Assembly: GCF_009914755.1 (NCBI RefSeq)
Contig: NC_060947.1
Source of the DNA: the human T2T-CHM13v2.0 reference genome, Homo sapiens
Direction: 5' to 3' (one strand)
DNA: 64,000 bases
Shown here piece after piece: positions 17,993 through 21,204 of the stretch. How positions within the stretch are numbered: the stretch's first letter is position 1; every line of letters starts with the position of its first letter. A program made the position numbers and the translations under genes. The notes under the pieces are model-generated. The model was given only the letters and a program-made list of their open reading frames with translations, was not told the origin of the DNA and ran no database searches.

Positions 17993-18760
17993 TTATATAT
18001 TGTAAATCCAATGATAGCTGATCAAATCAGTGCCTCTCCTGTTCCAAACTTGACATGATTGAATTGTCAATAGAAAAGATTTTACAGTAAGAGAAGGAAA
18101 GCTGACAGTGTAAATGTCTGAAAACCCAATGAAGCTCAATATAAAATAGAACAATGAGTTAGGATATCATTTTATAATTTCCAATGGGGAAAAAAAGTGT
18201 TTAGTGAATCACAGCTGAAATTGGGGGTGATCACAGGGAGGGGGAAGCAGGAATGAAAAGCCAGCTAACTTGCATTATAATTTTTGAGAAATCTGAAATG
18301 CAAATTTGCAGATGCAAATTTTAGGAATTATGCATCATAGTCACTGAGTTGTTTATTTACAGAAATGGTTCAAATACTCTCCATCTCTTTCCTCCTCCAT
18401 ACACATAGTTTTTAGTGATAATACCCAGTTGCTGGGGAGAAATAAGCCTATCTTTCCCCAGGAGTCCTGCTGACTTCTAGTAAGTGGCTTGGGAACAGAT
18501 CTTGTAGAACTTATCCTTGCATTCTTAAAGTCAATCAGTAGAGCACTAGTTTCATTTAAAAGATCCCTAGAAGGAGTCAGGTTTGTTTTTGTTTTTGTTT
18601 TTGTTTGAAGCTGCAGAACTTTCTCAGATATATACATCTTGCTTCACATGTGGCCAACCACACTTCCCTTAGGAAAACTAAAAAAACTAAAAAAACTTAA
18701 AAAGTTGTACTCCTTAAAACTTGAACTCCTGCCAATTTTTCAAGAGACCTGATTTGTCTG
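17993..18760 (+). repeat. Long inverted repeat, left arm (unique sequence)
   Basis: Reverse complement of 20444-21204; 17993-18685 pairs with 20512-21204 without gaps (position sum 39197), 3 mismatches. Confidence 0.99.
18298..18319 (+). promoter_or_regulatory. Tandem POU octamer motifs (ATGCAAAT x2), candidate enhancer core
   Basis: ATGCAAAT at 18298-18305 and 18312-18319; mirror copy at 20878-20899; function not shown. Confidence 0.35.
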
Positions 18761-19160
18761 TTTGCAAATATAAGAGCATGGTACTTATTTGTATGTTGAG
18801 AAGCATATGACATCCCATAGGGAGAGACCAGGCTGTGAACTGATAAGAGAATGCTGTTTCATTTAAAAGCAGACAGAGCCTTGTTTGCATGACGTTCTTG
18901 CCTCAGTAGTTGTTCTAAATGCATGGGACCTGATTAAGGGAGAATTAGCTTCTGAGAGATGCTTGGTTTCTGAGTTTTCATCTTGAAAACTATATTCTGA
19001 GGTTGTTGGAGCATATTTTTGGAGACATCTTTAAATATAAATGAAATTCAGCATTATTCTCCTCCCTGTGGAGGTGGCACATTACACCACTGACCATCCT
19101 CTCTCTCTCCTTCTGTGATGTGCTCTTCTCCCAGGAAGCTTCTCCAATATTGCACTTTTT

Positions 19161-19466
19161 ATTGTATTTATTTATTTTTTGAGATGGGATCTCCTTCTGT
19201 CACCCAGGCTGCAGGGCATTGGTACAATCATAGCTCACTGCAGCCCTTACCTCTTAGGCTCAAGCAGTCCTCCCACCTCAGCCTTCCAAGTAGCTGGGAC
19301 TACAGCTGAACGTGCCACCATGCCTGGCTAGTAAAAAAAACATTTTTATAAAGACCAGGTCTCACTTTGTCACCCAGGCTGGTCTCAAACTCCTGGTCTC
19401 AAGGGATCCTCCTGCCTTGGTCTCCCAAAGTGCTAGGGTGACAGGTGTGAGCAACTGCACCTGACC
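19161..19466 (-). mobile_element. Alu SINE (AluJ-like) in the inverted-repeat spacer
   Basis: Diverged reverse Alu; TSD aatattgc(a/t)cttttt. Confidence 0.93.
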
Positions 19467-19944
19467 TAATATTGCTCTTTTTTTGAAGCTTATCAAAACT
19501 TGTTCTTGATGGCTTGTTCTTCGTCTCATTCAACCAACTTCATTAATCTCTTGTTCTGACAGTGGAGTTCTTATAAAGCTCAATCAATTGCTCTCAATTT
19601 ATTATCATGGCTACCCTTTACTAAGTGCTTTTTACAAGCCAAAGATTGTGCTGTTCAAATTACATGTATTATTTCATTTAATGCTCACAGAATCTCTATA
19701 AAAATCAGAGAGAAGAAAAACAGGGCCAAGAATACTCTAGATTATTGGTTAACACCCAATTTTGCTGGACAGGGAAAAGAGTAGGAGCCAACAAAAAAAA
19801 TGGAAAAGTAGTGATCAGAAAGGAAGGAGGGGAACAAGGAAGAGCAAGATCCTGGAAGTCAAAGAAGTTGATGTGACACCCACCATGAACTACACTCTCC
19901 AATCTATATATCTCCACCCTCAGCTTATTGCACATGCACTGTAC

Positions 19945-20080
19945 TAAAGGTGCTGTAGGTGGGTTTGGGGCATCATTGACCCTCTGAAATGTGATGCAAA
20001 ATTTCATGCATCTACATGCATACATTTTCTGGGGCATGAGTTCACAGGTTTAATTAGGGACCCATAAACAAAACAAAGGT
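19945..20080 (+). mobile_element. MER117-like hAT-Charlie fragment
   Basis: ctgaaat..gatgcaaaattt...cattttctgggg...gacccataaacaaaacaaagg resembles recalled consensus. Confidence 0.45.
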
Positions 20081-20443
20081 GTATCTTCAGGCTCTTGCCT
20101 TCAGTTTTCCATTGCACAGTTTCCATTGTACCCCGAAAGTTGACATGTCTAAAACTTCATTTAACATCTATTTTTGTATCACCTCGCTGCAAACTGGTTA
20201 CTGATCTCACCTCTGTCCACTTTTTGCTAGTATAATACCATTATTCTCCTCCAAGCCATCCTCTGTTTTCCCCCATATATCTAGTACATGACCATTGCCT
20301 CTAGGATTTATCCCTCCTCTCTTCTTCCCTTCTTACTTTTTTTACCACCTTCTCTTGGGACCTTTTCTTCTAGCGTGTAGACTTTTGAGGTTGTTCTTAG
20401 CCAGCATCCTTGCTTGCTAACCCTCTTTGTATTACAGTGATGC

Positions 20444-21204
20444 CAGACAAATCAGGTATCCTGAAAAATTGGCAGGAGTTCTTCAAGTTTTAAGGGGTAC
20501 AGCTTTTTTAGTTTTTTAGTTTTCCTAAGGGAAGTGTGGTTGGCCACATGTGAAGCAAGATGTATATATCTGAGAAAGTTCTGCAGCTTCAAACAAAAAC
20601 AAAAACAAAAACAAACCTGACTCCTTCTAGGGATCTTTTAAATGAAACTAGTGCTCTACTGATTGACTTTAAGAATGCAAGGATAAGTTCTACAAGATTT
20701 GTTCCCAAGCCACTTACTAGAAGTCAGCAGGACTCCTGGGGAAAGATAGGCTTATTTCTCCCCAGCAACTGGGTATTATCACTAAAAACTATGTGTATGG
20801 AGGAGGAAAGAGATGGAGAGTATTTGAACCATTTCTGTAAATAAACAACTCAGTGACTATGATGCATAATTCCTAAAATTTGCATCTGCAAATTTGCATT
20901 TCAGATTTCTCAAAAATTATAATGCAAGTTAGCTGGCTTTTCATTCCTGCTTCCCCCTCCCTGTGATCACCCCCAATTTCAGCTGTGATTCACTAAACAC
21001 TTTTTTTCCCCATTGGAAATTATAAAATGATATCCTAGCTCATTGTTTTATTTTATATTGAGCTTCATTGGGTTTTCAGACATTTACACTGTCAGCTTTC
21101 CTTCTCTTACTGTAAAATCTTTTCTATTGACAATTCAATCATGTCAAGTTTGGAACAGGAGAGGCACTGATTTGATCAGCTATCATTGGATTTACAATAT
21201 ATAA
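20444..21204 (-). repeat. Long inverted repeat, right arm
   Basis: Reverse complement of 17993-18760; the ORF track shows the same 94-aa ORF in both arms with one S/F difference. Confidence 0.99.

What the first reader, a model, noticed from the sequence alone, without database searches (positions are those of the whole stretch)
17993..21204. ~770-bp near-perfect inverted repeat of unique DNA around a 1.68-kb spacer: candidate flip-flop inversion or long dsRNA hairpin
Seen: 17993-18760 is the reverse complement of 20444-21204. Over 693 bp (17993-18685 vs 20512-21204) I find no indels and only 3 substitutions (18149/21048, 18159/21038, 18498/20699), about 99.6% identity. The arms match no transposon I recognise, and I see no TSD or transposase, so this is not a TIR element. 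Established: highly identical inverted repeats are substrates for non-allelic homologous recombination that recurrently inverts the spacer, and for arm-to-arm gene conversion. When transcribed they fold into long dsRNA recognised by ADAR1, MDA5, PKR or Dicer. Inference: the spacer 18761-20443 may be an orientation-polymorphic cassette, and/or the host transcript forms an unusually perfect non-Alu ~700-bp duplex.
Basis: partly seen in the sequence, partly recalled or inferred. Interest (0 to 1): 0.85.

Follow-up and report, generated by a model that had tools for sequence, protein, structure and literature searches.

The report
Small inverted duplication in GPC3 intron
A real, nearly perfect 770-base inverted duplication of unique DNA sits inside an intron of the human GPC3 gene, but it is already listed in a published catalogue, shows no RNA expression there, and looks like an ordinary small palindrome-like duplication kept alike by copying between its arms.

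Summary
Window 17993-18760 is the reverse complement of 20444-21204 (771 columns, 97.4%), and 693 gapless bases carry only 3 substitutions. The arms, spacer and flanks have no other copy in the genome. There is no transposase, no coding signal and no Rfam match apart from two Alus.

The repeat is already in print. Barak et al. 2020 (PMC7006430, Table S8) list it at hg19 chrX:132948907-132949675 / 132951358-132952119, length 768, identity 97.406%. It is one of 197 long, tight inverted duplications in human pre-mRNAs. FPKM is 0 and editing is not measurable in two GTEx pools.

Divergence is uneven: 3 of 687 outer sites against 4 of 72 inner sites, plus all 3 indels in the inner part (Fisher p=0.002). 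My best reading is an older inverted duplication whose outer 687 bp are homogenised by arm-to-arm gene conversion.

hg19 and T2T-CHM13 carry the same orientation markers. I found no inversion call at the locus in the supplements of two long-read studies. Flip-flop inversion remains possible but unsupported, and a dsRNA role is unlikely. Interest is low.

The parts
17993..18761 (+). Left arm of the inverted repeat (769 nt; the blastn alignment ends at 18760)
   Evidence: Only two copies exist in the genome. GC 35.5%, 0 CpG.
20443..21204 (-). Right arm of the inverted repeat (762 nt), the reverse complement of the left arm
17993..18679 (.). Outer, homogenised tract of the left arm (687 bp; partner 20518-21204). 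It has 3 substitutions (0.44%) and perfect runs of 156, 9, 338 and 181 bp.
18680..18761 (.). Inner, diverged tract of the left arm (82 nt; partner 20443-20517). It has 4 substitutions in 72 aligned sites and 3 indels of 1, 9 and 3 bp.
   Evidence: Fisher p=0.0021 against the outer tract.
18674..18703 (+). A-rich tandem repeat with an 8-9 bp unit. It has 3.3 copies in the left arm and 2.5 copies in the right arm (20504-20523). It is the site of the 1-bp and 9-bp indels and marks the border between the homogenised and diverged parts.
18762..20442 (.). Spacer (1681 bp; 1683 by the blastn ends). It is unique DNA apart from one old Alu and a short stretch at about 19601-19689 that weakly matches two other chromosomes.
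   Evidence: A 110-aa ORF has no Pfam match.
19152..19466 (-). Old Alu inside the spacer, with its own target-site duplication (19146-19160 and 19468-19482, 14 of 15 identical)
   Evidence: Rfam SRP/Alu matches. Sequence read. It is 71% identical to the other Alu.
17664..17979 (-). Alu whose 5' end lies 13 bp outside the outer end of the left arm. It is not part of the repeat.
   Evidence: SRP matches at 17696-17978, minus strand. Sequence read.

Best explanation
This is a small inverted duplication of unique intronic DNA, a miniature palindrome with a spacer. A 0.77-kb piece of a GPC3 intron was copied once, in reverse orientation, 1.7 kb away from its source. The most likely route is a replication or repair template switch, because both ends are sharp and no mobile-element features are present.

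Since then the two copies have not evolved independently. Repeated arm-to-arm (intrachromatid or sister-chromatid) gene conversion has kept the outer 687 bp at 99.6% identity. The innermost 72-82 bp lie behind a length-polymorphic A-rich tandem repeat that interrupts the homology. They have escaped conversion and drifted to about 5.6% divergence.

The repeat has no demonstrated function. It is a passive by-product that is a potential substrate for NAHR inversion of the spacer and would form an intronic nuclear RNA hairpin when GPC3 is transcribed.

Shown: the structure, its uniqueness, the sharp ends, the uneven divergence, its presence with the same layout in two independent assemblies, and its prior cataloguing with zero expression.

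Inferred: the template-switch origin, the gene conversion, and an age greater than the outer divergence suggests.
For: 1. **Structure and uniqueness.**. Searches show that the arms, spacer and right flank have no other genomic copy.
2. **Sharp boundaries.** Flank homology is no better than shuffles.
3. **Uneven divergence.** There are 3 substitutions in 687 outer sites (95% CI 0.09-1.27%) against 4 in 72 inner sites (CI 1.5-13.6%), Fisher p=0.0021. All 3 indels are in the inner part. The border coincides with a tandem repeat that differs in copy number between the arms. That is the kind of heterology that stops a conversion tract.
4. **The alternative source of junction-proximal mutations is too weak.** Beck et al. 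2015 estimate about 2 mutations per 15 kb sequenced around replicative junctions (PMC4352052, passage). Here there are 7 events in 82 bp.
5. **Not an assembly artefact.** hg19 (Barak Table S8) and T2T-CHM13 give the same arm lengths (768/761), the same spacer (1683) and the same identity (97.406%, which is 751 of 771).
6. **No function-like signal.** There is no Rfam family except Alu/SRP-related matches. None of the 3 ORFs tested has a Pfam match. FPKM is 0 and editing is NA in two GTEx pools.
Against: - No outgroup or population data could be examined, so neither the age nor concerted evolution is shown directly.
- The contrast rests on only 7 substitutions.
- The arms are not GC-enriched (35.5% GC, lower than the spacer and flanks). 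GC-biased gene conversion might be expected to raise their GC content.
- The outer edge of the arms shows no comparable decay, although conversion should also fade there. No heterology barrier exists at that edge, which may explain the difference.
- hg19 and T2T carry the same number of arm differences, so no conversion event distinguishes these two haplotypes.
Confidence: 0.55

Rival explanations
1. A young, neutral inverted duplication, hominin- or ape-specific and about 2-4 My old judging by the 0.44% outer divergence. No gene conversion is involved. The cluster of differences at the inner end arose during the duplication event itself (error-prone synthesis just after a template switch) or from local hypermutability.
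For: - Outer divergence is 3 of 687.
- Both ends are sharp.
- The 1-bp and 9-bp indels lie in a slippage-prone tandem repeat, and the 3-bp indel is a GAA duplication.
- Replicative repair is reported to raise point-mutation frequency near junctions (PMC4352052).
- The arms are not GC-enriched.
Against: - The reported junction-associated rate, about 2 per 15 kb, is some hundreds of times too low for 4 substitutions in 57-72 bp.
- The 4 substitutions lie outside the tandem repeat, in ordinary sequence.
Confidence: 0.27
2. An orientation-polymorphic (flip-flop) cassette. NAHR between the arms recurrently inverts the 1.7-kb spacer, and both orientations segregate in humans.
For: - The arms have 99.6% identity over 687 bp with a 338-bp perfect run.
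- The ratio of arm length to inverted length is high (about 0.3). Giner-Delgado et al. 2019 report that this ratio correlates positively with inversion frequency, and that nearly all inversions with highly identical inverted repeats are recurrent (PMC6748972, passages).
Against: - hg19 and T2T-CHM13 have the inner-arm markers and spacer in the same orientation.
- No call at T2T chrX 13213xxxx/13214xxxx or hg38 13381xxxx appears in the Porubsky 2023 supplement for 41 genomes.
- No PAV-style id at these coordinates appears in the held, truncated Logsdon 2025 supplement.
- The locus is not among the inversions tabulated in the main text of Aguado 2014, and GPC3, Xq26 and chrX do not occur in the main text of Giner-Delgado 2019.
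- The inverted repeats of validated NAHR inversions in the passage of the Aguado 2014 table that I read are 1.6-32 kb, longer than here.
Confidence: 0.12
3. A functional RNA hairpin. The GPC3 pre-mRNA, or an independent transcript, folds the arms into a roughly 750-bp duplex that is edited by ADAR, sensed by MDA5 or PKR, or diced into endo-siRNAs.
For: - Both arms lie in one GPC3 intron (hub annotation).
- The predicted duplex is -1356 kcal/mol with 752 intermolecular pairs.
- 5 of the 6 transition differences are A:C mismatches on the GPC3-sense RNA. From recall, A:C is a favoured ADAR context.
Against: - Barak et al. Table S8 gives FPKM 0 and AEI 'NA' (no coverage) for both arms in both GTEx pools.
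- Intronic dsRNA is removed by splicing and is not expected to reach cytoplasmic MDA5 (PMC12695637 passage; PMC7006430 Results).
- The arms match nothing else in the genome, so siRNAs from them would have no trans target.
- GPC3 is not mentioned in the main text of three dsRNA surveys.
- 5 of 6 is not significant (two-sided binomial about 0.2, my arithmetic).
Confidence: 0.04
4. A mobile element with long terminal inverted repeats, or two independent insertions of the same repeat family in opposite orientation.
For: The layout looks superficially like TIR-spacer-TIR. The flanks show a weak 7-8-nt direct similarity that needs an indel and a 1-nt offset (read).
Against: - Only these two copies exist in a 3.1-Gb genome.
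- The spacer and flanks are also unique.
- There is no transposase-like ORF. Four ORFs of 70 aa or more overlap the region; the 3 that lie in the arms or spacer were tested and have no Pfam match.
- 99.6% identity is far too young for human DNA transposons (recalled: these have been extinct for tens of My).
Confidence: 0.01

Closest known systems
Long, nearly perfect 'inverted duplicated sequences' (IDS) in human pre-mRNAs (Barak et al. 2020, Genome Biol, PMC7006430, Table S8)
   Same: It is literally one of the 197 listed entries: hg19 chrX 132948907-132949675 / 132951358-132952119, length 768, identity 97.406%. Like most entries it is intronic and unexpressed in poly(A) RNA-seq pools.
   Different: Nothing sets it apart within the class. 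The paper says most dsRNA structures lie in repetitive elements, whereas this one is unique sequence. The paper does not discuss this entry individually.
Inverted-repeat-mediated (NAHR) polymorphic inversions, such as the InvFEST HsInv set (Aguado 2014, PMC3961182; Giner-Delgado 2019, PMC6748972)
   Same: Highly identical inverted repeats flank a short unique segment, and the locus is X-linked, like several validated cases.
   Different: The arms are shorter (0.77 kb against 1.6-32 kb in the passage of the Aguado table I read). The second orientation has not been observed.
Large X- and Y-chromosome palindromes maintained by arm-to-arm gene conversion (Warburton et al. 2004; Jackson et al. 2021; both recalled, not read here)
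   Same: An X-linked inverted repeat with a spacer and arm identity above 99% over most of its length. The inferred maintenance by intrachromosomal gene conversion is the same.
   Different: It is one to two orders of magnitude smaller, contains no gene, and shows no sign of selection. Conversion is inferred from 7 substitutions only.
Inverted repeats as seeds of DUP-TRP/INV-DUP complex rearrangements at X-linked disease genes (Beck et al. 2015, PMC4352052)
   Same: An inverted repeat inside or near a dosage-sensitive X-linked disease gene. GPC3 is the Simpson-Golabi-Behmel syndrome gene (PMC5061924 abstract).
   Different: No GPC3 rearrangement has been mapped to this repeat. The one GPC3 rearrangement paper I looked at gives no such link.
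Palindromic AT-rich repeats (PATRR; recalled)
   Same: AT-rich (35.5% GC) inverted arms several hundred bp long.
   Different: PATRRs have essentially no spacer and extrude cruciforms. Here a 1.68-kb spacer separates the arms, so cruciform extrusion is not expected.

Membership tests
Barak et al. long, tight IDS class | Reverse-complement self-match longer than 300 bp | tested here: met
   768/761 bp
Barak et al. long, tight IDS class | Identity above 96% | tested here: met
   97.406%
Barak et al. long, tight IDS class | Both arms lie within one RefSeq pre-mRNA | tested here: met
   The hub annotation shows GPC3 spanning the whole window on the minus strand with no exon in it. The repeat is listed in Table S8, 'within human RefSeq transcripts'.
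NAHR-mediated polymorphic inversion | Highly identical inverted repeats at both breakpoints | tested here: met
   99.6% over 687 bp, with a longest perfect run of 338 bp
NAHR-mediated polymorphic inversion | Both orientations observed among haplotypes | tested here: inconclusive
   2 of 2 assemblies (hg19, T2T) have the same orientation by arm-length markers. No call was found in two supplements, one of which was truncated. No reads or pangenome were available.
Segmental duplication (standard definition, recalled: at least 1 kb and at least 90% identity) | Length of at least 1 kb | tested here: not met
   The arms are 769 and 762 bp
TIR DNA transposon | Multiple genomic copies of the element or its TIRs | tested here: not met
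   Only the two arms match in the genome
TIR DNA transposon | Target-site duplication flanking the unit, and a transposase or remnants of one | tested here: not met
   There is no clean direct repeat at 17992/21205. The 3 ORFs tested have no Pfam match.
Large X palindromes (Warburton class, recalled threshold: arms of at least 8 kb) | Arm length of at least 8 kb and gene content | tested here: not met
   0.77-kb arms. No annotated gene or functional element (hub). The ORFs have no family match.
hpRNA / endo-siRNA hairpin locus | Transcribed hairpin that yields small RNAs with trans targets | tested here: not met
   FPKM 0 in two pools. The arms have no other genomic match that could be a target. 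Small-RNA data were not available.

The most novel reading that the evidence does not exclude
The repeat is an ancient sub-kilobase X-linked mini-palindrome that predates the great apes. Arm-to-arm gene conversion has held its outer 687 bp nearly identical for tens of millions of years, and its spacer occasionally toggles by NAHR. It would then be one of the smallest examples of concerted evolution and inversion toggling in human unique DNA, and a latent rearrangement seed inside the Simpson-Golabi-Behmel gene GPC3.
Probability: 0.15. Interest if true: 0.4.

Novelty: already known. Interest (0 to 1): 0.15.

Why it matters
As it stands, it matters little. It is one of about 200 catalogued long, tight inverted duplications inside human genes. 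It shows no expression in the published pools and no recorded inversion.

It has three modest uses:
- The built-in orientation markers make the locus easy to genotype from long reads. These markers are the inner-arm indels and 4 substitutions that would flip together with the spacer.
- The contrast between the homogenised outer 687 bp and the diverged inner 72 bp, split by a tandem repeat, offers a clean small case. It could be used to measure how short a homology tract still supports gene conversion on the X.
- Anyone mapping GPC3 rearrangements in Simpson-Golabi-Behmel syndrome, or mapping short reads in this intron, should know that the repeat is there.

Tried and rejected
1. **Transposon or repeat-family origin: rejected.** The arms have only 2 genomic matches. 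The junction-spanning queries 18400-19150, 19467-20800 and 20900-22088 found only themselves and the partner arm. The one exception is two weak hits (75-83% over 52-89 bp) to a stretch of the spacer at about 19601-19689.
2. **Using old repeats that cross a junction to tell the source arm from the copy: failed.** No repeat crosses any junction.
3. **Residual homology beyond the arm ends, which would indicate a larger and older repeat: none found**.
4. **RNA families: none.** Only Alu-derived SRP and mir-1268/1285/3135 sub-threshold matches were found, all inside the two Alus.
5. **Coding potential: none.** A mirrored 94-aa ORF in each arm and a 110-aa ORF in the spacer have no Pfam match. A fourth ORF, 17492-17977, lies in the left flank and Alu and was not tested.
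6. **Known inversions: not found.**
   - The locus is not among the inversions in the Aguado 2014 main-text table passages I saw.
   - GPC3, Xq26 and chrX do not occur in the Giner-Delgado 2019 main text.
   - A full-text search for GPC3 + 'inverted repeats' + 'polymorphic inversion' returned 0 papers.
   - The Porubsky 2023 supplement had 0 relevant hits.
   - The Logsdon 2025 supplement gave numeric-prefix hits, but all six passages shown were unrelated. It had no chrX id at the locus. The file was cut when stored and only two passages per term are shown, so this check is not exhaustive.
   - Porubsky 2022 (Cell) was not in the searchable library.
7. **GPC3 disease rearrangements tied to this repeat: none found**.
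8. **Alu 17664-17979 and the left arm.** I looked for a target-site duplication of this Alu that might tie its insertion to the outer end of the left arm. A 15-nt candidate matches at 11 of 15, but all 4 mismatches are transversions. I judged it unconvincing (read).
9. **Strand bias of the arm differences: not significant.** 5 of 6 transitions are A:C on the sense RNA.
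Full report
**1. The observation**

- The repeat finder reports a single inverted pair in 16500-22700: 17993-18693 against 20504-21204, 701 nt, 99% complementary.
- Gapped blastn gives 17993-18760 against 21204-20444: 771 columns, 97.406% identity, 7 mismatches, 3 gap openings.
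- One more matching base on the inner side extends the arms to 17993-18761 and 20443-21204.

In the whole window this is the only inverted match of at least 150 bp at 95% or more. The other three inverted pairs at 90% or more are 161-215 bp at 91-93%. Homology ends sharply at all four arm ends. Local alignments of the outer and inner flanks score no better than shuffles: 186, 93 and 57 of 200 shuffles reach the observed score, against 0 of 200 for the positive control.

**2. What the pieces are**

The arms are unique DNA. A search of the window's own 3.1-Gb assembly finds only the two arms. Queries spanning the left inner junction, the right inner junction and the right outer junction find only themselves and the partner arm. 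The exception is two weak hits to a short spacer stretch at about 19601-19689.

Other features:
- The arms are AT-rich (35.5% GC) and contain no CpG.
- The two masked blocks named by the hub are Alus on the minus strand: 17664-17979, ending 13 bp outside the left arm, and 19152-19466, inside the spacer (Rfam SRP-type matches).
- The spacer Alu has its own 15-nt target-site duplication, 14 of 15 identical (read).
- Rfam gives nothing else.
- Four ORFs of 70 aa or more overlap the region. The three in the arms or spacer (94, 94 and 110 aa) have no Pfam match.
- There is no transposase, no clean flanking direct repeat, and no other copy. The unit is not a mobile element.

**3. It is already catalogued**

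Table S8 of Barak et al. [quoted passage not shown] I read the Results section, the table heading and rows of the table. One row reads chrX 132948907-132949675 / 132951358-132952119, length 768, identity 97.4059663.

These hg19 coordinates are within 20 bp of what I had predicted from the hub's T2T position and recalled GPC3 coordinates. The arm lengths (768 and 761), the spacer (1683 bp) and the identity (751 of 771) are the same as in T2T-CHM13.

For this row the editing index is 'NA' for both arms, which the table defines as zero coverage. FPKM is 0 in both the 15-tissue GTEx pool and the muscle pool. The paper counts 197 such structures in human RefSeq pre-mRNAs and reports that only 20 have both arms expressed above FPKM 0.01. 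Of the 63 rows of Table S8 that I read in full (part 4 of the file), 14 have arms longer than 768 bp and many have FPKM 0. This repeat is therefore an ordinary member of that class.

Two independent assemblies, the clone-based hg19 and the long-read CHM13, agree in every measured respect. That rules out an assembly artefact.

**4. Uneven divergence**

The differences between the arms are not spread evenly.
- The outer 687 bp (17993-18679) carry 3 substitutions: 0.44%, 95% CI 0.09-1.27%.
- The inner 82 nt (18680-18761) carry 4 substitutions in 72 aligned sites: 5.6%, CI 1.5-13.6%. They also carry all three indels.
- Fisher's exact test on the substitutions gives p=0.0021.

The border between the two parts is an A-rich tandem repeat with an 8-9 bp unit. 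It has 3.3 copies in the left arm and 2.5 in the right, which accounts for the 1-bp and 9-bp indels. The 3-bp indel is a GAA duplication. The four inner substitutions lie beyond the tandem repeat in ordinary sequence.

**5. How it most likely works**

I read this pattern as concerted evolution. The inverted duplication is older than its 0.44% outer divergence suggests. Arm-to-arm gene conversion keeps the outer 687 bp alike. The last 57-72 bp are isolated behind a length heterology and are too short to recombine on their own, so they have drifted.

Using recalled substitution rates of 0.5-1 x 10^-9 per site per year, the outer divergence corresponds to roughly 2-4 My since the last homogenisation. 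The inner divergence corresponds to some tens of My, with very wide limits. These dates are inference, not measurement.

The alternative is that the inner cluster was made during the duplication by error-prone replicative repair. This is quantitatively weak. Beck et al. 2015 (PMC4352052, passages read) estimate about 2 junction-associated mutations per 15 kb sequenced. Here there are 7 events in 82 bp. I still give the young-duplication rival 0.27, because the case rests on seven substitutions, no outgroup could be examined, and the arms are not GC-enriched.

The origin itself is inferred from the sharp ends and the absence of mobile-element features. The inference is one inverted copy placed 1.7 kb from its source, most simply by a template switch during replication or repair. 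I could not determine which arm is the copy.

**6. Flip-flop inversion**

The arms are a plausible NAHR substrate: 99.6% identity with a 338-bp perfect run. Giner-Delgado et al. 2019 (PMC6748972, passages read) report that inversions with highly identical inverted repeats are almost all recurrent, and that the ratio of repeat length to inversion length correlates with inversion frequency.

The evidence I could gather nevertheless points to a single orientation. A crossover in the outer tract would carry the inner-arm segments across together with the spacer, which would swap the 768 and 761 arm lengths. Both hg19 and T2T have 768 on the left and 761 on the right.

Searches of published inversion sets:
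- The Porubsky 2023 supplement (41 genomes remapped to T2T, PMC10150506) has no entry beginning 13213 or 13214 on chrX, and none beginning 13381. The only hit is on chr14.
- The held part of the Logsdon 2025 supplement (PMC12350169) includes PAV inversion genotype tables but has no id chrX-13213, chrX-13214 or chrX-13381. That file was truncated in storage, and an earlier numeric search of it was uninformative.
- The locus is not among the inversions in the Aguado 2014 table passages I read, where repeats are 1.6-32 kb.
- A full-text search for GPC3 with 'inverted repeats' and 'polymorphic inversion' found 0 papers.

A rare second orientation cannot be excluded.

**7. The dsRNA reading**

If both arms are in one RNA they would pair. 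Cofolding gives -1356 kcal/mol and 752 intermolecular pairs on the GPC3-sense (minus) strand, and -1368 kcal/mol on the plus strand. Five of the six transition differences are A:C mismatches on the sense RNA and G:U pairs on the plus-strand RNA. This is not significant.

Four things argue against a role:
- Coverage is zero in Barak's pools.
- The location is intronic. Barak et al. and Sun et al. 2025 (PMC12695637, passages read) state that intronic duplexes are spliced out and are not expected to meet cytoplasmic MDA5.
- The arms have no other genomic match that could be a trans target for small RNAs.
- GPC3 is not mentioned in the main text of three dsRNA surveys. Their supplements were not seen.

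The GTEx pools are poly(A) data from adult tissues, where GPC3 is weakly expressed (recalled). Formation of a nuclear hairpin in fetal or tumour tissue is therefore untested.

**8. Comparison with known kinds, and verdict**

The repeat is a listed member of the Barak long, tight IDS class, and all three defining features are met. It works like a miniature X palindrome, but it fails the size thresholds of both the palindrome class (recalled: arms of at least 8 kb) and segmental duplications (recalled: at least 1 kb). It has the architecture of an NAHR inversion locus but lacks the defining observation of two orientations. It is not a TIR transposon, a PATRR or an hpRNA locus.

Novelty: already known as an object. 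The uneven-divergence reading is new but modest.

Interest: 0.15. The most novel reading not excluded is an ancient, conversion-maintained, occasionally toggling mini-palindrome inside the Simpson-Golabi-Behmel gene. I give it 0.15 probability and 0.4 interest if true.

Noticed in passing
window 17649-17663 and 17980-17994: The Alu at 17664-17979 (minus strand) ends 13 bp from the outer end of the left arm. A candidate 15-nt target-site duplication (11 of 15 identical, all 4 mismatches transversions) would end 2 nt inside the arm. That would place the Alu's second-strand nick almost exactly at the repeat boundary. It is probably coincidence, but it could link the Alu insertion and the duplication breakpoint.
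   Followed up: partly
window 18149, 18159, 18498, 18705, 18711, 18743 and their partners: 5 of the 6 transition differences between the arms are G:U wobbles in a plus-strand RNA and A:C mismatches in the GPC3-sense RNA. This is not significant (about p=0.2), and the direction is opposite to the transcription-associated substitution bias I recall.
   Followed up: partly
window 19601-19689: A short stretch of the spacer weakly matches sites on two other chromosomes (75% over 89 bp and 83% over 52 bp). It is probably a fragment of an ancient interspersed repeat that the hub's masking does not list.
   Followed up: no
window 18353-18637 (-) and 20560-20844 (+): Each arm carries the same 94-aa ATG-initiated open frame, mirrored. 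It has no Pfam match and is about what chance allows in AT-rich DNA of this length.
   Followed up: yes
window 9844-10057 / 13735-13949, 42891-43051 / 52210-52385 / 62056-62231: The other inverted or direct self-matches in the window are 161-215 bp at 91-93%. They fall in or next to blocks the hub lists as masked repeats, so they are presumably Alu-Alu pairs, the usual source of intronic dsRNA.
   Followed up: no
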